From positions 1 to 45,646 of IMG/VR virus record IMGVR_UViG_3300029750_000003: 45,646 bases of DNA; one strand, given 5' to 3'. This document shows, piece after piece, positions 36,255-43,361 of the stretch. The notes beneath the pieces were generated by a model. The model saw only the letters and a list, made by a program, of their open reading frames with translations, searched no databases and was not told the DNA's origin. Position 1 is the stretch's first letter. The number at the start of each line of letters is the position of its first letter. The translations under genes and the position numbers were made by a program. The stretch comes from a virus.

Positions 36255-37286
36255 ATGAGAAGAGCGAATGGAACTGGAAGTATTGTAAATCTTGGGCCAA
36301 ACCGCAGAAACCGATACGCCGTCAGGGTGTCGTATTTGGAGCGGCCCGGACTGTGGAAGCAAAAGTATCTATCCTACCACAGAACTGCCAAAGAAGCACA
36401 GGAGGCCCTTGACAAATATTTGGCATCTAATATCCCGGCAAAGTCACTCGCCGTTACCTGGGGAGACGTATACAATCAGTGGTCTGCCAAAAAGTATGCA
36501 AAGGCAGGAACTGCCTCTATCGCCAGCTATAAGGCTTCTTGGGCGCGCCTCTGTGTGCTAGAAAAAAAGGATATGTGCAAGGTTACGATTGACGACCTAC
36601 AATCTATTATTGACCAAGACGAGGCAAACGGATTATCGAAATCTAGTATTAGCAATGACAAAATGCTTATGAAAGCACTTTTTAAGCACGCAACAGAGCG
36701 CGATATCGTGTATAAAGACTATTCCGCTTTTGTGGAACTTCCAGGAGTTGAAGCAAAGCACGAAAAGGGTGCTTTTGATGATATCACAATGCGTAAATTG
36801 GAGAACCTGGCGTCCTCTGGATTCCCTTGGGCTGATACCGTACTAATGCTATGTTATACTGGATTCCGGGTGTCCGAGTTTTTGGGGCTTACCAGATTCT
36901 CGTATCATTCGGAGGCGAATTATTTGCAAGGAGGTCTAAAAACCCAGGCCGGGAAAAATCGCATTGTCCCGGTGCATCCTAAAATCATGCCATATCTGAC
37001 CAAGTGGCTGTCCAGGGGCGGTAAAACTATTATCTGTGATGATGACGGGAATGCAATCCCCGCATACAAATACCGCCCGCTATTCTCTAAAGTTATGGAA
37101 GAATTAGGACTTCCTTCCGCAACCCCTCATTGGTGCAGACATACCGCCGCGTCTCGGATGAGGATGGCCGGGGTGGACGAAGTCGCTATAAAGCGTATCT
37201 TAGGGCATTCCGATGGAGATGTTACCGAGCACTATACGCACGTAGATGTTTCGTTTTTGGCTAAAGAGATCCAGAAGGTTTCCTAA
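36255..37286 (+). CDS. int: Tyrosine integrase
   Basis: 343 aa. Catalytic-type motifs GFRVSE (Arg), HWCRHTAAS (H-x-x-R) and LGHSDGDVTEHYTH (His..Tyr). Confidence 0.9.
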   Translation: MRRANGTGSIVNLGPNRRNRYAVRVSYLERPGLWKQKYLSYHRTAKEAQEALDKYLASNIPAKSLAVTWGDVYNQWSAKKYAKAGTASIASYKASWARLCVLEKKDMCKVTIDDLQSIIDQDEANGLSKSSISNDKMLMKALFKHATERDIVYKDYSAFVELPGVEAKHEKGAFDDITMRKLENLASSGFPWADTVLMLCYTGFRVSEFLGLTRFSYHSEANYLQGGLKTQAGKNRIVPVHPKIMPYLTKWLSRGGKTIICDDDGNAIPAYKYRPLFSKVMEELGLPSATPHWCRHTAASRMRMAGVDEVAIKRILGHSDGDVTEHYTHVDVSFLAKEIQKVS

Positions 37287-37292
37287 GTATTT

Positions 37293-37550
37293 GTAACTTT
37301 CTTTTTAAATATGTGCAAATAGAACAACGAACAAAAAGTTCAAAAAAGTTGTTTTTGTTGTGGATTTTTATTGTTGTTCTAGTATTTTTAGTTCTAAAAT
37401 TAGATTGACTTTTAATCTGTTTGTAATTCCTCAGAAAAAGAAACCTAGTAATTGCAATGGTTGCAGGATTTTTTGTATCTAGTATGTAGCTAGTGCGTAA
37501 CTTTCGGTGTAAATATGTGCAAATAGCAAACCGATGAAAAAGTTCAAAAA
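37293..37550. repeat. Pair of ~54-bp imperfect direct repeats 204 bp apart in an AT-rich region; candidate attP arm sites
   Basis: GTAACTTTC..TAAATATGTGCAAATAG..AAAAAGTTCAAAAA occurs at 37293-37346 and at 37497-37550. All three blocks share the same 204-bp offset. Confidence 0.7.
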
Positions 37551-37580
37551 TAGAGGGCGGAGGCTATTGCCCCCGCCCCT
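37546..37580 (-). terminator. Terminator of the six-gene minus-strand operon
   Basis: Minus strand: GGGCGG...CCGCCC hairpin followed by TCTATTTTTG. Confidence 0.65.
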
Positions 37581-37583
37581 TGT

Positions 37584-38393
37584 TTAGCCCCTCACGATGT
37601 ACTCGTAGTAGCGGGCCAGTTTGTCCTCTGGTGCGTCCTTATCACACAGGAACGATTTTGCCATGTCGGCGTAAAAATCAATCTTATCGCCAACACCGTG
37701 TTTCTTGGCTACCTTAACGTAGTCACTATAGACCATGTTGAGGGCCGCCCAAAACTGGACAGGGTCGCACTCAATCCCACGCTGGGCCATGACCTGCTTT
37801 GCCTGCTCCAGCGTCCAGTGAGCGCCACGGGTGCCGTCTTCGTTATCCATATGCTTAGACCATTCATCGGCCATCTCCTTCGTGAAAGGGATATAGCCGG
37901 AAGCAGCCCCATAACCTGTCATGCGTTCTCCACCTTTTCTGTACGCCATCTCGTCCATGCGGTAGTCATGGTCAAACTCTCTCGGAGTTCTCATTTCTCC
38001 TTCTCCAGAGATAGCGAATCCGATTTTGTTCATTGGCCGATTCATCTCCCGTCGCTCTGTGTATGCGCTCCCATCCTCCCGATAGACCGGTGGGACGTAG
38101 GGGTAGCCGTAGTGAGACTGAGGGCCGTACATCCGGTCATCCCAGTAGCGGTTCTCTACCCACATGCCGCCATCGTTGCGTGGGGCAAAGCGTCCATCAG
38201 AGTAACGACGATAGCCCCGATCCTCCGGCTCCATCATCTCAGAGCGCGGTGCATAACGGCCATTGTCGTAATGCTCCCGGCCATGGCGGTCACGAAACTT
38301 ATCATCGACATCGTAGTTGTCGTAGCTCCGTCCGTCGTTGTAGCGACGATTGTTGCCACTGGACATGAGCATCATCCGAGTAGATCGTTTCAT
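37584..38393 (-). CDS. Hypothetical protein: Arg/Asp/Tyr/Asn-rich low-complexity N-half plus a globular C-terminal domain
   Basis: 269 aa. Repeats DNGRYAPRSEMM and SDGRFAPRNDGGM. C-terminus FTKEMADEWSKHMDNEDGTRGAHWTLEQAKQVM... Confidence 0.7.
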   Translation of the reverse strand: MKRSTRMMLMSSGNNRRYNDGRSYDNYDVDDKFRDRHGREHYDNGRYAPRSEMMEPEDRGYRRYSDGRFAPRNDGGMWVENRYWDDRMYGPQSHYGYPYVPPVYREDGSAYTERREMNRPMNKIGFAISGEGEMRTPREFDHDYRMDEMAYRKGGERMTGYGAASGYIPFTKEMADEWSKHMDNEDGTRGAHWTLEQAKQVMAQRGIECDPVQFWAALNMVYSDYVKVAKKHGVGDKIDFYADMAKSFLCDKDAPEDKLARYYEYIVRG

Positions 38394-38405
38394 TTTGACC
38401 CCTCC

Positions 38406-38801
38406 TTACGCCGTAGGGGCGGGTGCAGCACCGCCGTCAATACTGGCAAGATTGTTGCTGGGAGAGCAGCAGGGCTGCCCCAGCATGCGGAACGAGCCGC
38501 CGGTGGGGGTAGTCACCACACAGACGGAGTATCGGGTGCGAGTACGGATGCCGCAGGCAGTCACCTGCGCGCAGTTACGCTTGGTAAGGGGATATAGCTC
38601 TGTCCCCGTACCAATAGTAATGTACACAGGTGCATTGATGGTAGTTGTGGCCGGGATGGACTGGGCTACCACAATACAATACTTCCCGCCGTTGTTGTAG
38701 GCACCGGCAGGCAGATTGATTTCAAGGTTGCCGCCGGTAAAGGTGACCGCCTGGCTTAGCACCAGGTTGTCGCACAGGCGGCAAACAGGCTTACAAGACA
38801 T
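38406..38801 (-). CDS. Hypothetical Cys-containing beta-rich protein (131 aa)
   Basis: ATG 5 nt after GGAGGT. MSCKPVCRLCDNLVLSQAVTFTGGNLEINLPAGAYNNGGKYCIVVAQ... Confidence 0.7.
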   Translation of the reverse strand: MSCKPVCRLCDNLVLSQAVTFTGGNLEINLPAGAYNNGGKYCIVVAQSIPATTTINAPVYITIGTGTELYPLTKRNCAQVTACGIRTRTRYSVCVVTTPTGGSFRMLGQPCCSPSNNLASIDGGAAPAPTA

Positions 38802-38899
38802 AAAATACCTCCAAGAATCAGGGGCGGCAGACATTTAGCCCGCCGCCCCGAAATAGTCACGGCAGAGCCGGAAATTTAAAGTGGTCGATTTCGACCAGT

Positions 38900-39661
38900 T
38901 TAGCAGCCACAGCCGCAGCCGCTGCTGTAGGTCCCGCAATAGGGATAGGGGGCGGGCACTTGGTAAGCGGGTACGGGCATGGGGTTGATGCGCCGAATCA
39001 GCTCAGAGGTCTGAGCGTCAGACATGGCAGCAAGATAAGAGTTCTGTGCGGTCTGGCTGGCCTGGAACTTCAACGCCTGATTCTCAGACTGGAGGGAGGC
39101 GATCTTATCCTGAGTCAAGAAATTCAGGATTTCACGAGTACCAGCGTTCTGGCTGTCAATGATATCTCGTGTGCTATTCTGGATGGTATTCTGGATGGCG
39201 CAGGTGTTGGTCGCCATGTTGTAGTTCACGCCGTCGATAGCGCGCTGGGTCTGGCAGCAGCAGTCCTGTGCCTGAGCGGCCATGTTGCACATCTGAGACT
39301 GGACGCCGTTGAAGCCCTGGAGAAGTGCCACATTGGTGTTGTTGAAGCCGCTGGTGATGCTGTTATTCAGCGCATAGGTGCTGTCACAGATGCCCTGCTG
39401 GATAGCAGAGATGCCGCGCTCAACGCCATTGAACGCAATGGCCTCGTTCACATCGGCACGGGTGGCTAGGCCCTCGAGGCCGGGATCGGTGCTGGCACCG
39501 CCACCGCCGAAACCACCGAAGCCGCCGCGGCCCCAGCCAAAAATCATGGCGAAGATGATGATAGCCCACCAGCCATCGCCACCCCAAAAGCCGCCATTGT
39601 TACAGTTGCCGCCGTTGGAGTCGGAGCCAAGAGCATAGCCAGTCGCAAAATCGTTATCCAT
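38900..39661 (-). CDS. Hypothetical membrane protein: Gly/Trp-rich N-terminus, Asn/Gln-rich Cys-containing core, CGCGC tail
   Basis: 253 aa. GGFWGGDGWWAIIIFAMIFGWGRGGFGGFGGGG. Ends YCGTYSSGCGCGC. Confidence 0.7.
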   Translation of the reverse strand: MDNDFATGYALGSDSNGGNCNNGGFWGGDGWWAIIIFAMIFGWGRGGFGGFGGGGASTDPGLEGLATRADVNEAIAFNGVERGISAIQQGICDSTYALNNSITSGFNNTNVALLQGFNGVQSQMCNMAAQAQDCCCQTQRAIDGVNYNMATNTCAIQNTIQNSTRDIIDSQNAGTREILNFLTQDKIASLQSENQALKFQASQTAQNSYLAAMSDAQTSELIRRINPMPVPAYQVPAPYPYCGTYSSGCGCGC

Positions 39662-39767
39662 TGTATATACTCCTTTGTCAGTTATTACATCGGGGCCGTA
39701 CGCTCCCCGGATGTTTCCAAAGAGCGGTTTTTATCAAGACCCGAAAACTGATAAAGAGTGCTCTATT

Positions 39768-40004
39768 TTATTTCATGGGTATACCTAGTTGTCGTGCAAT
39801 TTCCTCAACGGAGGTTCCCCTCTGTTTCGCCATGTTTTCTGCTGTTTGGCGAAGCTGCTGCGGGTTTTTCCCCTGAATGAGCCGCATAGCTTGGGCAGCC
39901 TGTGGATTCTGGCCAGCCATCTGTTGGAGCATTTGCATGGGATTCCCGCCGTTCCGCGCCATCTGGAGCATGGCCATCATGGGATTATTCATCGGAGGCA
40001 TCAT
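39768..40004 (-). CDS. Hypothetical Met/Gln/Pro-rich small protein (78 aa)
   Basis: MMPPMNNPMMAMLQMARNGGNPMQMLQQMAGQNPQAAQAM... Confidence 0.6.
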   Translation of the reverse strand: MMPPMNNPMMAMLQMARNGGNPMQMLQQMAGQNPQAAQAMRLIQGKNPQQLRQTAENMAKQRGTSVEEIARQLGIPMK

Positions 40005-40470
40005 TCTTTTTCCCTGCCTTTCCGCCGGACGTGGGCTTTTTCAGCCGTTCTATTTCGTCCTTCAGATTGTTGATGGTGTCCTTCATGTCCATAAATTCAT
40101 CCAGCGGTGCAAAAGCGGGGGCCGGGTTCTCTGCCTGCTGTTCTTTTGCCTGCTGTTGGCCGTGGAACTCAAACACATCAGCAGCTCCGGTATTGGTATT
40201 GAATCGTTTCATATAGACCACATTATGAGCGAGGTCGGGGAAAAACATGGGAGCACCCATGAAGTCAACCGGAACACCCAGCGCTTCTTCCCTGGAGGCC
40301 ACAGGACGGCAGAAAAAAGCGGGCTGTGTGTTTACATTACTCTGTGGCTGAATGGTCTGTGAGGGTTGCTGAGTAGGTTGCTGGGGCTGATATACTTGTG
40401 GAGCCGGAGCAAACGGGGTAACAGGATTGTAGGCCCCATAAGCCGGGTATGTGTAATTAGGAAACGCCAT
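39985..40470 (-). CDS. Hypothetical protein: Pro/Gln/Tyr-rich N-terminus, conserved core, C-terminal coiled coil
   Basis: ATG after GGGGAGGGAGG. The core FFCRPVASREEALGVPVDFMGAPMFFPDLAHNVVYMKRF resembles a family I recall as widespread in Clostridia with unknown function. Confidence 0.7.
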   Translation of the reverse strand: MAFPNYTYPAYGAYNPVTPFAPAPQVYQPQQPTQQPSQTIQPQSNVNTQPAFFCRPVASREEALGVPVDFMGAPMFFPDLAHNVVYMKRFNTNTGAADVFEFHGQQQAKEQQAENPAPAFAPLDEFMDMKDTINNLKDEIERLKKPTSGGKAGKKNDASDE

Positions 40471-40636
40471 ACTGACGCGCCTCCCTCCCCGCCTCCAATG
40501 CGGTTACGTAATCCTCTAGGCCCTCGTCATCTCCCTGTGCCATGTACCACATCGCTGTTTCGGTGGCACAATCGCGGGACATGCCAGCGGCTACCATCCT
40601 CTCAATCAAAGTCATCTCAAACACGTCCTTGTCCAT
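40457..40636 (-). CDS. Small acidic helical protein (59 aa; below the track cutoff), first ORF of the operon
   Basis: My translation: MDKDVFEMTLIERMVAAGMSRDCATETAMWYMAQGDDEGLEDYVTALEAGREARQYGVS. Overlaps the next start. No clear RBS. Confidence 0.4.
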   Translation of the reverse strand: MDKDVFEMTLIERMVAAGMSRDCATETAMWYMAQGDDEGLEDYVTALEAGREARQYGVS

Positions 40637-40838
40637 AAAAATAAGGAGTCCGTGAGGAGGGCGGCGACGTGTACCAACCCTGTATCCTCACGTCCTCCAT
40701 GTCTATATTGTCGCATAAAAATACCCCGCATGGGCGGCACACATGTGGGGGTTGTGTGGAAGTTATGGGGGATTCGCGTAATTTTTTGTATTTACTTTTT
40801 GAGATGTTACTTTATAATAGAAAGGGAGCGTGAAAAAT

Positions 40839-41117
40839 ATGATTATATATCGGCCCCATAGAGGCGGACTGAAAGAGGCTATGTCAGAAGCAAAAGAATT
40901 TAATAATGTAGAGGATATGAAAGAGTATATAGTCAAGCAGCATACTGACGATGTTATGGGAGAGGCATTTTCCAAAAATGATATTGTATTGGAAGAAGAT
41001 GGGATAGAGGATAAAAGAACTGGGTGGAAAGACACAAGACATATTTGTGTGAAACGATATTACAACGAAAATTTTCCAATCCCTCAGTGTATCGGATGGT
41101 TTGCAACAAAATATTAA
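40839..41117 (+). CDS. AT-rich orphan gene (92 aa), plus strand
   Basis: ATG 10 nt after GGGAG. Conspicuously AT-rich. Possible -10 TATAAT at 40813-40818. Ends at the shared terminator. Confidence 0.6.
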   Translation: MIIYRPHRGGLKEAMSEAKEFNNVEDMKEYIVKQHTDDVMGEAFSKNDIVLEEDGIEDKRTGWKDTRHICVKRYYNENFPIPQCIGWFATKY

Positions 41118-41151
41118 AAAAGGAGCCGGGTTAATCCCCGGCTCCCTTTTT
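41116..41151. terminator. Bidirectional terminator
   Basis: AAAAAA, then GGAGCCGGG-ttaatc-CCCGGCTCC, then CTTTTT. Serves both convergent genes. Confidence 0.8.
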
Positions 41152-41391
41152 CGTATAGAGTTGTTTTGCTACAGCCTCAACCCTCTGGAATATGTATTTC
41201 TCGTGGTCGCTAACTGTGCTTCGATCCCAGCCCAGCTCCGCCGCAACATCAATCTGTCCCCACTTATCAATGATGCGCCGCTTGGCGATCAATTCATCGT
41301 CGCGGTGTAGGGCAGCCTCGTGGATGGCGTTCTCCAACTGAGAGCGCAAGAGTTTATCCAATGGTTCCGGTAACTTCGCTCTTGCGCTCAT
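41131..41391 (-). CDS. Small sigma-70 region-4-like / HTH protein (86 aa)
   Basis: ELIAKRRIIDKWGQIDVAAELGWDRSTVSDHEKYIFQRV resembles a region-4 HTH. Confidence 0.5.
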   Translation of the reverse strand: MSARAKLPEPLDKLLRSQLENAIHEAALHRDDELIAKRRIIDKWGQIDVAAELGWDRSTVSDHEKYIFQRVEAVAKQLYTKKGAGD

Positions 41392-41395
41392 TCAG

Positions 41396-41725
41396 TCACG
41401 TCCCTTCCGGCGGCTCCGTGGGCAGTTGTTTCAGGGCCTCCACCAGTTTTGCCGCCATTCCGTTCCCGCCTAACGCCTTGTAGGCGTTGTACATGTCCAG
41501 CACGTTTTCCATGCCGTAGATCGGGATATAACGTTGTTCGGAGTAGTGGTTGTACTCGGCAATGATTTCGCGCCTGAGGAGGGCCTGCACGCCCTGCATG
41601 AGCGCGTCGCTCTTTTGGTTATCTGCCTTGACACGTTTCCGTTCCCGCGCGGCGACCGCCTCAATGATTGCCACCAGGACGACCGCCGCGCCGGAAATCA
41701 GTGGGCCTACCCACTCCATGGGCAT
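41396..41725 (-). CDS. N-terminally membrane-anchored protein after the holin (lysis accessory?)
   Basis: 109 aa. TM helix GPLISGAAVVLVAIIEAV. ATGA-type overlap with the holin stop. Confidence 0.6.
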   Translation of the reverse strand: MPMEWVGPLISGAAVVLVAIIEAVAARERKRVKADNQKSDALMQGVQALLRREIIAEYNHYSEQRYIPIYGMENVLDMYNAYKALGGNGMAAKLVEALKQLPTEPPEGT

Positions 41726-41997
41726 CAGCCCTCCTTAGTCAACTGCTTATAAACCTGATTGATACCAGTGGCCGCAAGTCCGCTCACAATGCCTACGGCG
41801 GCGGCTGTTAGGTAATCACTGGCCGGGAACTCAGGCATGATGAACATGCCGAGGATGCCAAGCACCGCGCCAAACGCACCGCAAATGATGGGAATCCACT
41901 TATTGTCCAGTCCGGTAGCTTTGACCACCTGCCCGACGAGGAAGCAGATCACAGTGATGACTGCTACTCCGGTAATACCCAAAGAAGAAATGTCCAT
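41725..41997 (-). CDS. Holin
   Basis: ATG 7 nt after GGAGGT. 90 aa with hydrophobic helices (GVAVITVICFLVGQVV, WIPIICGAFGAVLGILGMFI, AAAVGIVSGLAATGI). Immediately downstream of the endolysin. Confidence 0.7.
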   Translation of the reverse strand: MDISSLGITGVAVITVICFLVGQVVKATGLDNKWIPIICGAFGAVLGILGMFIMPEFPASDYLTAAAVGIVSGLAATGINQVYKQLTKEG

Positions 41998-42011
41998 GAT
42001 ATGTACCTCCA

Positions 42012-43361
42012 TCAAATCAGATTCAGCCGATCCAACACGACGGCCAGCTCCTGCCGGGTCATATTGTCGCGGGGCCGGGTGCCGTCCAGTACGCCCTTGT
42101 CCTTGGCCTTCTGCCACGCCTCAGCGGCCCAAACGTCCGGGGTATCCTCCGCGCTGTCCGCTCCCGTTTCGCCCTGCCAGGCCACGCCCAGCCAGTCACA
42201 GATTCCCTTTGCGGTGGCCTCGGCCAGTTTGTCCCGGTACTTGCTATCCTTGAGATACTCCGTGTCCATCTTGTTGGTATGGAAGCCGTACTCAATGAGC
42301 GCGGCGGGGGCGTCCGTCTTGGCGAGCACGGTATACATCTCGTGCTTGATCGGTTCGCTCCGCAGGGCCACCCCGGCAACATGGAAGGCGTTGACCAGTT
42401 TGGAGGCCAGCACATTGCGCTGCGCCGTCATAGGCCCTGCGCTGGTGTAGATCTCCAGACCGGACGCGCTCGACCATCCGCCCTCACCGGCCGCGTTGGT
42501 GTGGATGCTCACAAAGCAGTCCGGCTGCGCCTGATTGCTGGTCTCGGCTCGCTCCGTCAGGCTGGGGTAATTGTCCGCGGTCTTGGTGAGCACCACGCCC
42601 ACCCCCTGGACCTCCAGCAGCGCCTTGACGCGCTGGGCCATATCCCAGGTAAACTCCCACTCCTTGTATGTACCGTCCGGGGATCCGTTGACGTTGCCCG
42701 GCCCGTGTCCGGGGTCGAGGCATACAGTATGCTTGCTCATAGGCTTGTCCTCCTCTTCCGGCGGCGTCTCAGCGCCGTCCTGCTTGAGATATACACAAAT
42801 CCAGTTGTGCACCTTGCGGCTGGCGGTGATGCGCTCCCCGCCGAAATCGCACTGGCTGGAGCCGCCCCCGTCCAGCATAACGGCAGAGGCCCAGCCCAGC
42901 CCGGCCAACTCGTCCCGCAGAGTTTCCGGCGTGGCTGCGTCTCCGGTCCCATCGCCAGAGCAGTAGAGGGCCAGACTGCCACCACGCAGGCCGATAGCAC
43001 TGCGCCCCCGCTTGCCTCCCTGGGCCGAGCCATAGGAGGGCTTATCCACCGGCTTGCCGGAGGCAATTAGGGCGGTCACCGCGATAAAGTTATCCGCTCC
43101 CTCGTGCTCGGAGGTCATGCGGATGTCAGGCCCCTTGTCCCAGGCGTAGCCCATCGGCCGCCAGGGCGTGCCGGAGAGCATCGCCCCGCCCACCTTAAGC
43201 AGCGGGCAGGGGGTGCCGTCTAGGTTCCACATGCCGCCATTGAGCACGTAATGAGCCTTTGTTTCAGCCTTGACCTGAGAGAGCGTCTTGCGGCAGTTGG
43301 TGACTCTCAGCTCAATCCGCTCCACGGACGAGAGCGGGACATATGTAATGAGCTTACTCAT
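42012..43361 (-). CDS. Endolysin: phosphodiester-glycosidase (NAGPA)-like N-domain, Amidase_3 domain and a C-terminal wall-binding-like motif
   Basis: LNGGMW...SAIGLRGG...MLDGGGSSQ, then VCLDPGHGPG...FVSIHTNAAG...GLEIYTS, then a C-terminal AAEAWQKAKDKGVLDG...TRQELAVVLDRL. Confidence 0.85.
   Translation of the reverse strand: MSKLITYVPLSSVERIELRVTNCRKTLSQVKAETKAHYVLNGGMWNLDGTPCPLLKVGGAMLSGTPWRPMGYAWDKGPDIRMTSEHEGADNFIAVTALIASGKPVDKPSYGSAQGGKRGRSAIGLRGGSLALYCSGDGTGDAATPETLRDELAGLGWASAVMLDGGGSSQCDFGGERITASRKVHNWICVYLKQDGAETPPEEEDKPMSKHTVCLDPGHGPGNVNGSPDGTYKEWEFTWDMAQRVKALLEVQGVGVVLTKTADNYPSLTERAETSNQAQPDCFVSIHTNAAGEGGWSSASGLEIYTSAGPMTAQRNVLASKLVNAFHVAGVALRSEPIKHEMYTVLAKTDAPAALIEYGFHTNKMDTEYLKDSKYRDKLAEATAKGICDWLGVAWQGETGADSAEDTPDVWAAEAWQKAKDKGVLDGTRPRDNMTRQELAVVLDRLNLI

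What the first reader, a model, noticed from the sequence alone, without database searches (positions are those of the whole stretch)
37584..40636. Six-gene operon of low-complexity, Gly/Trp-, Asn/Gln-, Met/Gln- and Cys-rich proteins between the lysis cassette and attP
Six co-oriented, overlapping or closely spaced ORFs share one terminator (37546-37580) and occupy the classic moron slot. None resembles a phage structural, replication or lysis protein, or any enzyme I can recognise.
- A 59-aa acidic helical protein.
- A 161-aa protein with a prion-like Pro/Gln/Tyr N-terminus, a conserved core and a coiled coil.
- A 78-aa Met/Gln/Pro-rich protein.
- A 253-aa protein with a GGFWGGDGWW..FGWGRGGFGGFGGGG membrane segment, an Asn/Gln-rich core with regularly spaced Cys, and a CGCGC tail.
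- A 131-aa beta-rich protein starting MSCKPVCRLC.
- A 269-aa protein with an Arg/Asp/Tyr-rich repetitive half.
I recall proteins of these types as uncharacterised families scattered in Clostridia genomes. The composition resembles self-assembling, cross-linked surface or spore-coat/exosporium-like material. A phage-borne copy suggests a lysogenic-conversion system that remodels the cell or spore surface, or an entirely new function.
Basis: partly seen in the sequence, partly recalled or inferred. Interest (0 to 1): 0.85.

Follow-up and report, generated by a model that had tools for sequence, protein, structure and literature searches.

The report
Orphan phage cargo cassette, fibre-like proteins
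The six genes are real and belong to a self-contained, dispensable cassette that thousands of gut Clostridia phages carry just after their lysis genes; it seems to build a membrane-anchored protein fibre, but what that fibre does is unknown.

Summary
The six co-oriented minus-strand ORFs exist as described, with one likely correction to the p1 start. None matches a characterised family. p6 carries DUF7841, and p4, p2 and p5 match PHROGs of unknown function.

- A sigma-70-region-4-like gene (orf86) lies upstream and co-occurs with the cassette.
- A terminator hairpin abuts an invariant extended -10-like 12-mer.
- The orphan Rfam motif RAGATH-31 forms the 5' leader.
- Hairpins follow p4, and a terminator closes the unit.

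In 160 related loci the order is conserved. p2-p3-p4 is the core (p2 in 75 of 80 divergent loci). p1, p5 and p6 are swappable accessories. The cassette always follows unrelated holin and endolysin types and usually precedes an integrase. A near-identical phage lacks exactly 37428-40810, about 30% of phages with the same lysin lack the cassette, and one complete phage with no annotated integrase has it.

p4 models, at low confidence, as a transmembrane anchor plus a ~145-residue helix. A natural p4-p5 fusion suggests p5 sits at its tip.

Best reading (about 0.35): an autonomous cargo cassette building a membrane-anchored, Cys-rich fibre layer. The spore-coat and lysogenic-conversion idea is only weakly supported.

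The parts
41131..41391 (-). orf86: an 86-aa helix-turn-helix protein of a sigma-70-region-4-like family. It is the last gene of the lysis operon and travels with the cassette.
   Evidence: Present upstream of the module in nearly all close loci and 48 of 80 divergent loci. Among sibling phages it is present in 39 of 39 module-positive loci and absent in all 16 loci that lack both. The homologue in L161 (HMM E 1.3e-7) hits Pfam Sigma70_r4 at 26.7 bits, above the 24.1 cut-off. The window protein itself gave no Pfam hit at E<=0.01.
41116..41151 (.). Bidirectional intrinsic terminator between orf86 (minus) and the inserted plus-strand ORF 40830-41117.
   Evidence: 15-bp stem with T-runs on both strands.
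40724..40750 (-). Terminator-like GC hairpin followed by a T-run (40717-40723), immediately upstream of the cassette promoter.
   Evidence: Read from the sequence. Relatives keep a hairpin at the same place with a different, self-complementary sequence.
40705..40716 (-). 12-mer ATGCGACAATAT, invariant in the RAGATH-31 loci inspected from the first two scans (L164 has TGCGAAAATAT). Putative -35-independent extended -10 promoter (TGn-GACAAT). The predicted transcript start falls at the first base of RAGATH-31.
   Evidence: Conserved in loci whose p1 is only 54-61% identical. Divergent lineages have TGnTATAAG, TGnTATCAT, TGnTATACT or TGnTAATAT at the same place after the T-run. Promoter function is inferred, not shown.
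40645..40698 (-). RAGATH-31 RNA motif (RF03101): a 54-nt hairpin forming the 5' leader of the cassette mRNA, followed by a U-run and the p1 ribosome-binding site.
   Evidence: 81.6 bits against a gathering score of 71.8, E 1e-15. Found upstream of p1 in 77 of 80 close loci and in L099, the only divergent locus of the genome scan with p1, and later in L164. 98.7% of cells paired, with 2 compensatory pairs.
40457..40636 (-). p1: a small acidic helical protein. The probable true start is the ATG at 40615 (52 aa).
   Evidence: ORF. Start-codon conservation and AAGGA ribosome-binding site. Co-occurs with RAGATH-31 and is absent from 79 of 80 divergent cassettes.
39985..40470 (-). p2 (161 aa): a Tyr/Pro/Gln-rich disordered N-terminus, a conserved ~55-aa core (V.S.EEA...G....FPD.....Y.K.....G), and a C-terminal coiled coil. 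Core member of the module.
   Evidence: Detected in 75 of 80 divergent loci. Alignment A10. Weak match to phrog_21718. Nothing in a PDB profile search beyond coiled-coil noise.
39768..40004 (-). p3 (78 aa): a Met/Gln-rich helical protein with repeated NP motifs. Core member of the module.
   Evidence: Detected in 51 of 80 divergent loci, and most other loci have an unassigned ORF of ~55-90 aa (either strand) between p2 and p4. Only sub-threshold Pfam hits.
38900..39661 (-). p4 (253 aa): the hallmark protein. It has an acidic N-tail, a Gly/Trp-flanked transmembrane helix, a long Asn/Gln-rich helix with a CCC motif, a Pro-rich PxPVPAY segment and a C-terminal CGCGC tail.
   Evidence: phrog_16490 at E 1e-80. 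1741 clusters at 50% identity. Conserved motifs in A2 and A9. AlphaFold2 gives helices 31-41 and 80-225 at mean pLDDT 50. N-tail charge statistics.
38821..38897 (-). Structured p4-p5 spacer with a small hairpin (38882-38897) and a 12-bp GC hairpin (38821-38849). Putative attenuator or 3' stabiliser that sets a higher level for p1-p4 than for p5-p6.
   Evidence: In 51 of 56 divergent loci the spacer after p4 folds with MFE <= -15 kcal/mol, often as a GC hairpin followed by UUGAUUUU. The function is inferred.
38406..38801 (-). p5 (131 aa): a beta-rich protein with an N-terminal CxxxCxxC motif and further conserved Cys residues. Accessory partner of p4.
   Evidence: 4807 homologues, most of the best 120 being 131-139 aa. 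Conserved Cys in A1 and A7. AlphaFold2 gives 8 strands at pLDDT 59. A natural in-frame p4-p5 fusion exists (P0004). Detected in 46 of 80 divergent loci.
37584..38393 (-). p6 (269 aa): an Arg/Asp/Tyr-rich disordered N-terminal half fused to a C-terminal DUF7841 domain. Accessory member.
   Evidence: Pfam DUF7841 at E 2.4e-33. Detected in 18 of 80 divergent loci. DUF7841 occurs as a stand-alone 157-aa gene in L166. Separate Arg/Asp/Tyr/Ser/Gly-rich proteins take this place in 42 loci.
37554..37579 (-). Intrinsic terminator closing the cassette.
   Evidence: 11-bp stem with 9 GC pairs, then CTATTTTT.
37497..37550 (.). One copy of a 54-nt direct repeat (the other is at 37293-37346, 85% identical). 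It lies at the 3' edge of the cassette. It may be a recombination boundary or an attP or integrase arm site.
   Evidence: The cassette-less sibling L215 keeps only the 37293-37346 copy.
37428..40810 (-). Extent of the cassette as a discrete insertion/deletion unit.
   Evidence: L215 matches the window across 42200-40811 (96.6%) and 37427-36129 (98.8%), with nothing in between.

Best explanation
This is an autonomous, mobile accessory cassette of Clostridia phages. Its products are structural rather than enzymatic, and they probably assemble into a membrane-anchored fibre layer.

Transcription. The late/lysis operon ends in a small sigma-region-4-like gene (orf86) and a terminator. Directly behind the terminator's T-run sits a -35-less extended -10-type promoter. 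Its transcript begins with the RAGATH-31 hairpin, which I take to be a 5' stabiliser or translational control element for p1. Strong hairpins after p4 attenuate or stabilise the message, so that p1-p4 exceed p5-p6 in amount.

Assembly. p4 inserts with its short acidic N-tail outside. Its ~145-residue Asn/Gln-rich helix projects about 20 nm into the cytoplasm as an oligomeric coiled coil. The beta-rich, Cys-rich p5 docks on p4's Cys-rich C-terminal tip, through a metal site or disulfides formed between p4's CGCGC tail and p5's CxxxCxxC motif. p2 (disordered Tyr/Pro/Gln region, small core, coiled coil) and p3 (Met/Gln-rich) act as scaffold or chaperone for the hydrophobic, Gly-rich p4. p6 is an exchangeable accessory.

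Role. The layer modifies the envelope of the infected or lysogenic cell, or the integument of its spore where the host sporulates, to the phage's benefit.

What is shown: gene content, synteny, the indel behaviour, the RNA motif and the terminators.
What is inferred: promoter activity, p4 topology, oligomerisation, p4-p5 docking, and above all the biological role.
For: Autonomy and mobility:
- The cassette is an exact presence/absence polymorphism (37428-40810) against the near-identical phage L215.
- Among 56 loci with the same lysin and enough downstream sequence, 39 carry the module and 16 carry other cargo.
- The terminator + TGn-(-10) junction recurs in lineages with unrelated sequence.
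- The cassette has its own terminator.
- A free-standing HNH homing endonuclease sits inside the module in some relatives.

Regulatory RNA:
- RAGATH-31 scores above the gathering threshold and shows compensatory pairs.
- It occurs wherever p1 does.
- Hairpins follow p4 in 51 of 56 divergent loci.

Structural nature of the products:
- No enzyme, defence or virion family matched any product in Pfam, PHROGs, NCBIfam, PADLOC or the PDB.
- p4 models as a transmembrane helix plus one long helix. Stalk length varies through duplication of the CCC repeat (P0365, P0402).

p4-p5 link and topology:
- A natural in-frame fusion joins p4 to p5, deleting exactly p4's CGCGC tail and p5's CxxxCxxC head, in an otherwise normal module.
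- p5 shows no signal peptide on reading its translation, and p4's N-tail is acidic (mean 0.4 Lys/Arg against 3.6 Asp/Glu). Both favour an N-out, C-in orientation.

Core and accessory pattern.
Against: - Both AlphaFold2 models have low confidence (pLDDT 50 and 59), so the coiled-coil stalk and beta head are only indicative.
- The p4-p5 fusion is one variant. Its two assemblies may come from the same sample.
- A p4 N-half fused to an SGNH/GDSL-like hydrolase (P0374) would fit an extracellular C-terminus better, if it is not a chimera.
- The promoter rests on consensus only. The generic promoter scan did not pick up this site.
- Nothing shows when the cassette is expressed, and no phenotype is known.
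- A structural assembly is a default reading for non-enzymatic, low-complexity proteins and may simply reflect ignorance.
Confidence: 0.35

Rival explanations
1. Superinfection exclusion or another membrane-level defence. p4 and its partners sit at the membrane of the lysogen or infected cell and block DNA entry, or another step, of competing phages. The variable downstream genes (p5, the BclA_C-like family, p6 and others) would reflect an arms race.
For: - The cassette occupies the classic variable slot next to integrase and att, and is dispensable and exchangeable with other cargo.
- It is insulated by a terminator and carries a host-type promoter-like sequence, so it could be expressed from a prophage.
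- It includes a membrane protein, and its accessory genes are highly variable.
- Its presence in a phage with no annotated integrase is compatible, since virulent phages such as T4 encode exclusion proteins (Imm, Sp; my own knowledge).
Against: - No PADLOC match.
- The p2-p3-p4 core is strongly conserved across 1741 clusters at 50% identity, which is unlike fast-evolving exclusion genes.
- Five or six proteins, several of them low-complexity, is elaborate for an exclusion function.
- If p4's C-terminus is cytoplasmic, it cannot meet incoming tails.
Confidence: 0.2
2. One reading: lysogenic conversion of the spore surface. The proteins are made in the mother cell. p4 anchors in the outer forespore membrane. 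The Cys/Gly/Tyr-rich partners form a cross-linked coat or exosporium-like nap.
For: - Apart from p4, no product shows a signal peptide or membrane segment on reading the translations, as expected for coat and exosporium proteins.
- The composition is Cys-rich and Gly/Tyr-rich.
- The anchor-stalk-head layout of p4+p5 resembles BclA in outline.
- In 24 cassettes the gene after p4 belongs to a family whose members give weak BclA_C hits (5 members, best 6.5e-5, 21.5 bits).
- Hosts are Clostridia, many of which form spores.
Against: - The BclA_C scores are below Pfam's cut-off of 38 bits, and p5 is unrelated to that family by profile comparison.
- No collagen-like repeats can be read in the translations, and there are no sporulation-family matches, including YjcZ, GerQ and CotZ models.
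- The promoter-like element looks like a housekeeping extended -10, not a sigma-E or sigma-K site (my reading).
- The module is present in a complete phage with no annotated integrase.
- It is present in prophages of isolates I recall as non-sporulating (phenotype from my own knowledge).
Confidence: 0.15
3. A late lytic helper linked to lysis or release. The cassette would be expressed at the very end of infection, possibly driven or favoured by orf86. It would assist envelope disruption or protect progeny, for example by masking receptors on cell debris.
For: - The cassette lies directly downstream of, and is co-oriented with, holin and endolysin genes of many unrelated families in every locus where those flanking genes could be identified.
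- It is present in a phage with no annotated integrase.
- orf86 belongs to the late operon and co-occurs with the module.
- p4's layout of N-terminal transmembrane helix plus coiled coil recalls i-spanins.
Against: - 16 of 56 phages with the same lysin and holin do without it, so it is not needed for lysis by that cassette.
- A terminator separates it from the lysis operon.
- The hosts have a single membrane, so a spanin has no target (my own knowledge).
- No lipoprotein partner is evident on reading the neighbouring translations.
Confidence: 0.12
4. Virion-associated proteins, such as decoration fibres or ejection proteins, encoded outside the structural cluster.
For: The anchor-stalk-head architecture also resembles viral fibres. 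In some siblings the same slot holds a gp58-like fibre gene with an S74 chaperone domain.
Against: - The cassette is absent from about 30% of phages with the same backbone, including a near-identical one.
- It occurs with different virion types, including a phage with a P22-like portal.
- It never lies inside the structural cluster.
- A hydrophobic membrane anchor is unexpected in a tailed-phage virion.
Confidence: 0.03

Closest known systems
Morons: autonomous promoter-gene-terminator cargo units of temperate phages (lambdoid and HK97 concept)
   Same: - The cassette is a discrete insertion between two conserved backbone regions, present or absent among near-identical phages.
- It is flanked by a terminator-promoter junction upstream and a terminator downstream.
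- It lies next to the lysis genes and integrase.
   Different: - It is much larger than a typical moron: six to seven genes, a structured RNA leader and an associated regulator gene.
- It is extraordinarily widespread and conserved.
- It is also present in a phage with no annotated integrase.
- Expression from the prophage has not been shown.
BclA exosporium nap filaments of the Bacillus cereus group, and BclA-like proteins of Clostridioides
   Same: - The layout in outline: a basal anchor, a long oligomeric stalk and a distal beta-rich head.
- No secretion signals.
- In alternative cassettes the gene in the head position gives weak BclA_C matches.
   Different: - The stalk is a predicted alpha-helical coiled coil, not a collagen triple helix.
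- The anchor is a transmembrane helix.
- The head (p5) is a separate gene with no detectable BclA_C relationship.
- There is no evidence of glycosylation genes or sporulation control.
Two-component spanins (Rz/Rz1) of phages of Gram-negative bacteria
   Same: - p4 has an N-terminal transmembrane helix followed by a long coiled coil with conserved Cys residues.
- It is encoded just after the holin and endolysin.
- It has a Pro- and Cys-rich partner region.
   Different: - The hosts have a single membrane.
- No lipoprotein partner.
- A terminator separates it from the lysis genes.
- It is dispensable in siblings with the same lysis cassette.
- The topology is probably N-out, C-in.
RAGATH-31 RNA motif (Rfam RF03101), an orphan motif from the Weinberg et al. 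2017 screen
   Same: The leader at 40645-40698 is a bona fide member: 81.6 bits, full length, near-consensus.
   Different: Rfam lists it as an sRNA with no known function. Here it has a defined context: the first 54 nt of the predicted cassette mRNA, always paired with p1 and preceded by a conserved promoter-like 12-mer.
YjcZ-family tiny sporulation membrane proteins of Bacillus (recalled from memory)
   Same: The first ~60 residues of p4 have the same style: Gly/Cys/aromatic-rich flanks around one very hydrophobic helix.
   Different: No NCBIfam or Pfam match at E<=1. p4 carries a further 190-residue helical domain.

Membership tests
Moron / autonomous accessory cassette | Presence/absence polymorphism between otherwise near-identical phage genomes | tested here: met
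   L215 matches both flanks at 96.6% and 98.8% and lacks exactly 37428-40810. 16 of 56 phages with the same lysin lack the module.
Moron / autonomous accessory cassette | Own terminator downstream, and insulation from the upstream operon | tested here: met
   Terminator at 37554-37579. A terminator hairpin plus T-run lies upstream of the cassette in the window and in divergent lineages.
Moron / autonomous accessory cassette | Own functional promoter, active in the lysogen | not testable with these tools
   Only a conserved TGn-(-10)-like element was found (40705-40716, and analogous sites in other lineages). The generic scan did not call it. No expression data are available.
RAGATH-31 (RF03101) | Covariance-model score at or above Rfam's gathering threshold over the full model | tested here: met
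   81.6 bits against 71.8, model positions 1-54 of 54. L099 scores 76.6 bits.
RAGATH-31 (RF03101) | The helix is maintained by compensatory changes | tested here: met
   98.7% of cells paired and 2 pairs with changes on both sides. Slid controls pair at 45-65%. Variation is limited (12 variants).
DUF7841 (PF25223) | Pfam score above the gathering threshold | tested here: met
   p6 residues 156-264, 115.2 bits against 25.2.
PHROG 16490 (unknown function) | Full-length profile match | tested here: met
   p4 residues 17-253 against profile positions 19-281 of 286, E 1.3e-80.
BclA-type exosporium filament | C-terminal BclA_C (C1q/TNF-like) domain | tested here: not met
   No BclA_C hit for p5 or any window protein at E<=1. 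The positional substitute family in other cassettes scores 18.7-21.5 bits against a cut-off of 38. hhalign of p5 against that family gives probability 0.15%.
BclA-type exosporium filament | Collagen-like Gly-X-X repeat stalk | tested here: not met
   No such repeats in the translations of p1-p6. The p4 stalk is predicted alpha-helical.
Spore coat / sporulation protein families (GerQ, CotZ/ExsY, YjcZ, CotJ) | Match to the curated NCBIfam or Pfam model | tested here: not met
   No such hits for any of the six proteins at E<=1.
Spanin (i-spanin / o-spanin) | N-terminal transmembrane helix plus a coiled-coil domain, encoded next to the holin and endolysin | tested here: met
   p4 architecture and position.
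Spanin (i-spanin / o-spanin) | A lipoprotein (lipobox) partner, and a requirement for lysis | tested here: not met
   No product shows a signal peptide with a lipobox on reading the translations. The module is absent from 16 of 56 phages with the same lysis genes. The hosts have a single membrane (my own knowledge).
Known anti-phage defence systems (PADLOC-DB v2) | A match of any component to a defence-system model | tested here: not met
   No hits for p1-p6, orf86, orf109 or ORF 40830-41117 at E<=0.1.
Sigma-70 region 4 HTH (for orf86) | Pfam Sigma70_r4 above the gathering threshold | tested here: inconclusive
   The window orf86 gave no Pfam hit at E<=0.01. Its homologue in L161 (orf86 HMM E 1.3e-7) scores 26.7 bits against 24.1, and also hits DUF1492 weakly.

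The most novel reading that the evidence does not exclude
The cassette encodes a previously unrecognised kind of phage-borne self-assembling envelope structure. It would be a membrane-anchored nap of ~20-nm coiled-coil stalks (p4) capped by interchangeable Cys-rich beta heads (p5 or BclA_C-like proteins). The nap would be built with dedicated disordered or Met-rich helpers (p2, p3). It would be switched on through a dedicated sigma-region-4 factor and the RAGATH-31 leader. It would give infected cells, lysogens or their spores a new cross-linkable surface or cortical layer. That would also assign the first biological context to an orphan Rfam motif.
Probability: 0.2. Interest if true: 0.85.

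Novelty: categorically new. Interest (0 to 1): 0.62.

Why it matters
- Scale. The p4 family alone spans 1741 clusters at 50% identity, and its closest relatives recur in up to hundreds of contigs from gut Clostridia (Oscillospiraceae, Lachnospiraceae, Agathobaculum and others). This is one of the more common unexplained gene sets in temperate gut phages, yet every member is annotated as hypothetical.
- Testability. The unit is now defined: exact cassette boundaries, core and accessory parts, a natural cassette-less sibling, a promoter-like element and an RNA leader. Knock-out or transplantation experiments can be designed directly from these.
- RNA biology. The orphan motif RAGATH-31 gains a concrete genetic context.
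- Possible outcomes. If the products form a cross-linked membrane-anchored layer, this would be a new type of phage-encoded host remodelling, relevant to spore or cell-surface biology, phage-phage competition and colonisation in the gut. If it proves to be an exclusion system, it would be a new class with no enzymatic component.

Tried and rejected
Database searches that found nothing informative:
- Pfam, PHROGs, NCBIfam and PADLOC scans of all six proteins and their neighbours gave only DUF7841 and PHROGs of unknown function.
- PDB sequence and profile searches for p2, p4, p5, p6 and the BclA_C-like family gave only coiled-coil noise. Weak keratin, myosin and HA2 matches at E>0.05 are not evidence.
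- Literature searches for DUF7841, RAGATH-31 and phage-encoded exosporium or coat proteins found nothing relevant. The Weinberg 2017 main text does not mention RAGATH, and its supplements are not held.
- The annotated phage collection holds only uncultured metagenomic relatives, all annotated as hypothetical.
- An Rfam scan of 15 divergent loci found no ribozyme or other leader upstream of p2.

Structure prediction:
- AlphaFold2 of p5 reached pLDDT 59, and the Foldseek search of the PDB gave nothing below E 0.2.
- AlphaFold2 of p4 reached pLDDT 50, which is too poor for a fold search.

Ideas tested or considered and dropped:
- p5 as a divergent BclA_C domain: rejected by hhalign.
- p3 as an STI1/DP-like domain: recalled from memory, with no Pfam support.
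- The p4 N-terminus as a double-glycine bacteriocin leader cleaved by the Cys-His family: considered, but not testable here and not applicable to the window's p4 variant.
- Sporulation-sigma promoter consensus at the 12-mer: it did not fit on inspection.

Procedural: the first genome scan with the very diverse alignment A2 failed for lack of a conserved stretch. It was repeated with A3.

Full report
**Observation**

p1/p2 and p2/p3 overlap by 14 and 20 nt. A GC-rich hairpin with a T-run closes the set at 37554-37579.

The surroundings are those of a temperate tailed phage:
- An Amidase_3/NAGPA endolysin (42012-43361), a Hol44-type holin (within 41725-42117) and a small membrane/coiled-coil ORF (41396-41725) lie upstream on the same strand.
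- A tyrosine integrase (36255-37286) converges from the other side.

The 131-aa form of p5 is right, because most homologues have that length and the upstream ATG lies inside a hairpin. The p1 start is probably 40615 (52 aa), for three reasons:
- The ATG at 40636 has no ribosome-binding site.
- That ATG is ATA or ACG in many relatives.
- AAGGA followed by a start about 9 nt later is conserved, and gene callers give 53 aa in a relative.

**No match to known families**

- Pfam recognises only DUF7841 in the C-terminal half of p6 (E 2e-33).
- PHROGs places p4 in phrog_16490 (E 1e-80), and places p2 and p5 weakly in other families. All are of unknown function.
- NCBIfam and PADLOC give nothing.
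- PDB sequence and profile searches give only coiled-coil noise.
- The families are very large. p4 has at least 7982 hits at 90% clustering and 1741 clusters at 50% identity. p5 has 4807 hits.
- All named members are called hypothetical proteins from Caudoviricetes, Agathobaculum, Clostridiaceae or Eubacteriales.
- The annotated phage collection holds only uncultured metagenomic relatives.

**Co-occurrence**

In 80 IMG/VR loci with p4 at 80-100% identity, all six genes are syntenic wherever the contig is long enough. This includes loci whose integrase is only 24-31% identical and whose lysin and holin are undetectable by similarity.

In 80 much more distant loci from Clostridia genomes and MAGs (p4 at 34-62% identity), iterated profile searches gave these detection counts:

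| Family | Loci detected (of 80) |
|---|---|
| p2 | 75 |
| p3 | 51 |
| p5 | 46 |
| p6 | 18 |
| p1 | 1 |
| orf86-like small HTH gene upstream | 48 |

In most loci where p3 was not detected, an unassigned small ORF (~55-90 aa, on either strand) lies between p2 and p4. The order is always the same. So p2-p3-p4 is the core, and the genes after p4 are exchangeable. Besides p5 and p6, the downstream positions hold five other families:
- Arg/Asp/Tyr/Ser/Gly-rich disordered proteins flanked by helices (42 loci). These resemble the N-terminal half of p6.
- A ~140-aa beta-type family in p5's position (24 loci). Some members give sub-threshold BclA_C hits.
- A ~120-aa family with a Cys...His...Asp motif. 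It can also sit before p2.
- A ~106-aa HExxH family.
- A small helical family.

DUF7841 also occurs as a stand-alone gene.

**Genomic position and dispensability**

The genes upstream of the module in the distant loci are endolysins of many types (Amidase_2, CHAP, M23, NlpC/P60, M15, glucosaminidase) and holins of at least four families. The genes downstream are tyrosine or serine recombinases and CI-type repressors, or tRNA genes. The position after the lysis genes is therefore conserved across unrelated backbones.

The module is not tied to integration. Bajarodcaudo virus 5 is a complete circular 58-kb genome with its own DNA polymerase and helicase and no annotated integrase. It carries orf86, p2, p3, p4 and p5 homologues right after its holin and lysin.

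The module is also not essential. Among 56 loci that share the window's lysin (85-100% identity) and have at least 5 kb downstream:
- 26 have the full module.
- 12 have a variant module, and 1 lacks only p3.
- 16 have neither the module nor orf86, and carry other cargo such as a gp58-like fibre or a MuF_C polyvalent protein.
- 1 (L215) keeps orf86 but lacks the rest.

L215 matches the window at 96.6% through 40811 and at 98.8% from 37427 onward, with nothing between. The cassette is thus a discrete 3.4-kb insertion/deletion unit, 37428-40810. Its 3' edge carries one copy of a 54-nt direct repeat. The second copy lies beside the integrase gene. In some relatives a free-standing HNH/NUMOD4 homing endonuclease sits between p3 and p4. 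This probably accounts for the ~1-kb gap seen between p3 and p4 in some loci.

**Regulatory anatomy**

A scan of the whole window against Rfam gave a single hit above gathering score: RAGATH-31 (RF03101) at 40645-40698 on the minus strand, 81.6 bits against 71.8. It ends 8 nt before the annotated p1 ATG.

- The motif is present upstream of p1 in 77 of 80 close loci, and in the only locus of the genome scan that has p1.
- A more divergent copy with compensatory changes was later seen in L164.
- Across 12 sequence variants, 98.7% of the proposed pairs hold and two pairs show compensatory changes.

Upstream of the motif, every lineage I inspected has the same arrangement:
- The orf86-type gene ends.
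- A GC hairpin of variable but self-complementary sequence follows, with a T-run.
- An extended -10-like element follows immediately. In the window's lineage it is the 12-mer ATGCGACAATAT (40705-40716), invariant in the RAGATH-31 loci inspected from the first two scans. Elsewhere it is TGnTATAAG, TGnTATCAT, TGnTATACT or TGnTAATAT, and this holds in the integrase-less phage too.

A transcript from this element would begin at the first base of RAGATH-31. I therefore read the cassette as its own transcription unit, with RAGATH-31 as a 5'-terminal leader. It is followed by a U-run and by AAGGACGUG, a near-repeat of its own 5' arm that contains the p1 ribosome-binding site. Promoter activity and the leader's role (stabiliser or translational switch) are inferences.

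After p4 there are two hairpins (38882-38897 and 38821-38849). In 51 of 56 distant loci the spacer after p4 likewise folds strongly, often as a GC hairpin plus UUGAUUUU. This suggests a conserved attenuator or 3' stabiliser that sets p2-p4 above the downstream genes.

In the window, a small plus-strand ORF (40830-41117) and a bidirectional terminator (41116-41151) are inserted between orf86 and the cassette. That ORF was detected in only a minority of the close loci.

orf86 co-occurs with the module. Its family reaches Pfam Sigma70_r4 above threshold in one homologue.

**The proteins**

p4:
- AlphaFold2 with a 42-sequence alignment gave a low-confidence model (pLDDT 50). It shows a transmembrane helix (31-41), one long helix (80-225) and disordered tails.
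- The family conserves the Gly/Trp-flanked hydrophobic helix, a CCC motif, TRDIIDxQNAN, ENQALKxxASQxxQN, PxPVPAYxVPNPY and a Cys/Gly tail.
- Longer members duplicate the CCC-containing repeat.
- The N-tail is acidic (mean 0.4 Lys/Arg against 3.6 Asp/Glu in 88 sequences), which weakly favours N-out, C-in.

p5:
- The model is poor (pLDDT 59, eight strands) and has no structural neighbour.
- The family conserves CxxxCxxC at the N-terminus and several other Cys residues.

The p4-p5 link:
- A natural variant, found in two assemblies, fuses p4 in frame to p5 within an otherwise normal module.
- The fusion deletes exactly p4's CGCGC tail and p5's Cys-rich head.
- This is Rosetta-stone-type evidence that p5 works at the C-terminal tip of p4, and that the two Cys-rich ends normally join them.
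- p5 and the other partners show no signal peptide on reading, so the assembly would lie on the cytoplasmic side.
- One representative instead fuses the p4 N-half to an SGNH-like domain. If genuine, that argues the other way.

p2 and p3:
- p2 has a Tyr/Pro/Gln-rich disordered N-terminus, a ~55-aa conserved core and a coiled coil.
- p3 is Met/Gln-rich with NP repeats.

**Interpretation**

The best-supported statement is that this is an autonomous, mobile, dispensable cargo cassette. Its non-enzymatic products assemble around a membrane-anchored coiled-coil protein, with a beta-rich Cys-rich cap and disordered helpers. I give the structural-assembly mechanism about 0.35.

Its biological role is open. 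The rivals are:
- Membrane-level exclusion or defence (0.2).
- A late helper of lysis or release (0.12).
- A virion component (0.03).

The spore idea gains some support:
- The partner proteins show no secretion signals.
- The composition fits coat-like material.
- The anchor-stalk-head layout resembles BclA in outline.
- The positional substitutes of p5 give weak BclA_C signals.

Several findings count against it:
- p5 is unrelated to the BclA_C-like family.
- No sporulation family matched.
- The promoter-like element is of the housekeeping type.
- The module is present in a phage with no annotated integrase.
- It is also present in prophages of isolates I recall as non-sporulating.

A lysis role is unlikely to be essential, given the siblings with the same lysis genes that lack the module. 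A virion role is very unlikely for the same reason.

**Novelty**

Every component is catalogued only as unknown: PHROGs of unknown function, a Pfam DUF and an orphan Rfam motif. I found no paper describing the module. It matches no known kind of system feature for feature. It shares the moron's genetic behaviour, and only the outline of BclA filaments and spanins. I rate it as lying outside known kinds, with the caveat that no function has been shown.

Noticed in passing
window 40830-41117 (+), with promoter-like site 40791-40818 (+): A 95-aa plus-strand ORF (phrog_8785, unknown function) is inserted between orf86 and the cassette. It is bounded by the bidirectional terminator 41116-41151. It was detected in only a minority of the 80 close loci, so it looks like a separate small insertion.
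   Followed up: partly
window 37293-37346 and 37497-37550: A 54-nt direct repeat (85% identical, 204 nt apart) lies between the cassette terminator and the integrase stop. The cassette-less sibling L215 keeps only the integrase-proximal copy. It may be a recombination boundary for cassette exchange, or an integrase arm site within attP.
   Followed up: partly
L164:7273-7833 (-) and L166:7273-7833 (-): A free-standing HNH_3/NUMOD4 homing endonuclease gene sits on the opposite strand between p3 and p4. It probably accounts for the ~1-kb p3-p4 gap seen in L029-L032, L058-L060 and others.
   Followed up: partly
L243:2529-3629 and L244:1043-2143 (protein P0004): A natural in-frame p4-p5 fusion (366 aa) lacks p4's CGCGC tail and p5's CxxxCxxC head, within an otherwise normal orf86-p1-p2-p3-[p4p5]-p6-integrase arrangement.
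   Followed up: yes
protein P0374 (399 aa; contig not examined): The N-terminal 175 residues of a p4 relative continue into a domain with GDS and GxND motifs typical of SGNH/GDSL hydrolases. This is either a real fusion, which would bear on p4 topology, or an assembly or recombination chimera.
   Followed up: no
L083, L084, L092, L093, L142: spacer after p4: In addition to the large GC hairpin, a small conserved hairpin of the form CCCCGAAAGGGUGA recurs just after the p4 stop in several divergent lineages. The window has UGGUCGAAAUCGACCA at 38882-38897. This may be an undescribed RNA element.
   Followed up: partly
L099:8796-9170, L084:4775-5143, L128:11909-12262 and relatives: A ~120-aa family with the motifs N-x6-DC(T/S)IRA(I/L)S ... 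GH(I/V) ... DG-YYDTWD suggests a Cys-His-Asp papain-like or transglutaminase-like site. It occurs either before p2 or at the end of the cassette and has no Pfam hit. It is absent from the window.
   Followed up: partly
window 41725-42117 and 42012-43361 (-): The listed holin ORF overlaps the endolysin ORF by about 100 nt. The holin profile matches start at residues 41-54, so the holin probably starts at an internal Met. The endolysin combines a NAGPA-like N-terminal domain with Amidase_3.
   Followed up: no
L090:5877-5953 and L082:1040-1187: The Rfam motifs RT-18 and RT-2 (RNAs associated with reverse transcriptases) occur a few kb upstream of the module in two divergent prophages. This suggests diversity-generating or retron-type elements in those phages.
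   Followed up: no
window 1-45646: Structural genes run off the low-coordinate end and resume at the high-coordinate end. The window therefore looks like a complete, circularly permuted temperate phage genome of about 45.6 kb. It has no tRNA genes.
   Followed up: no
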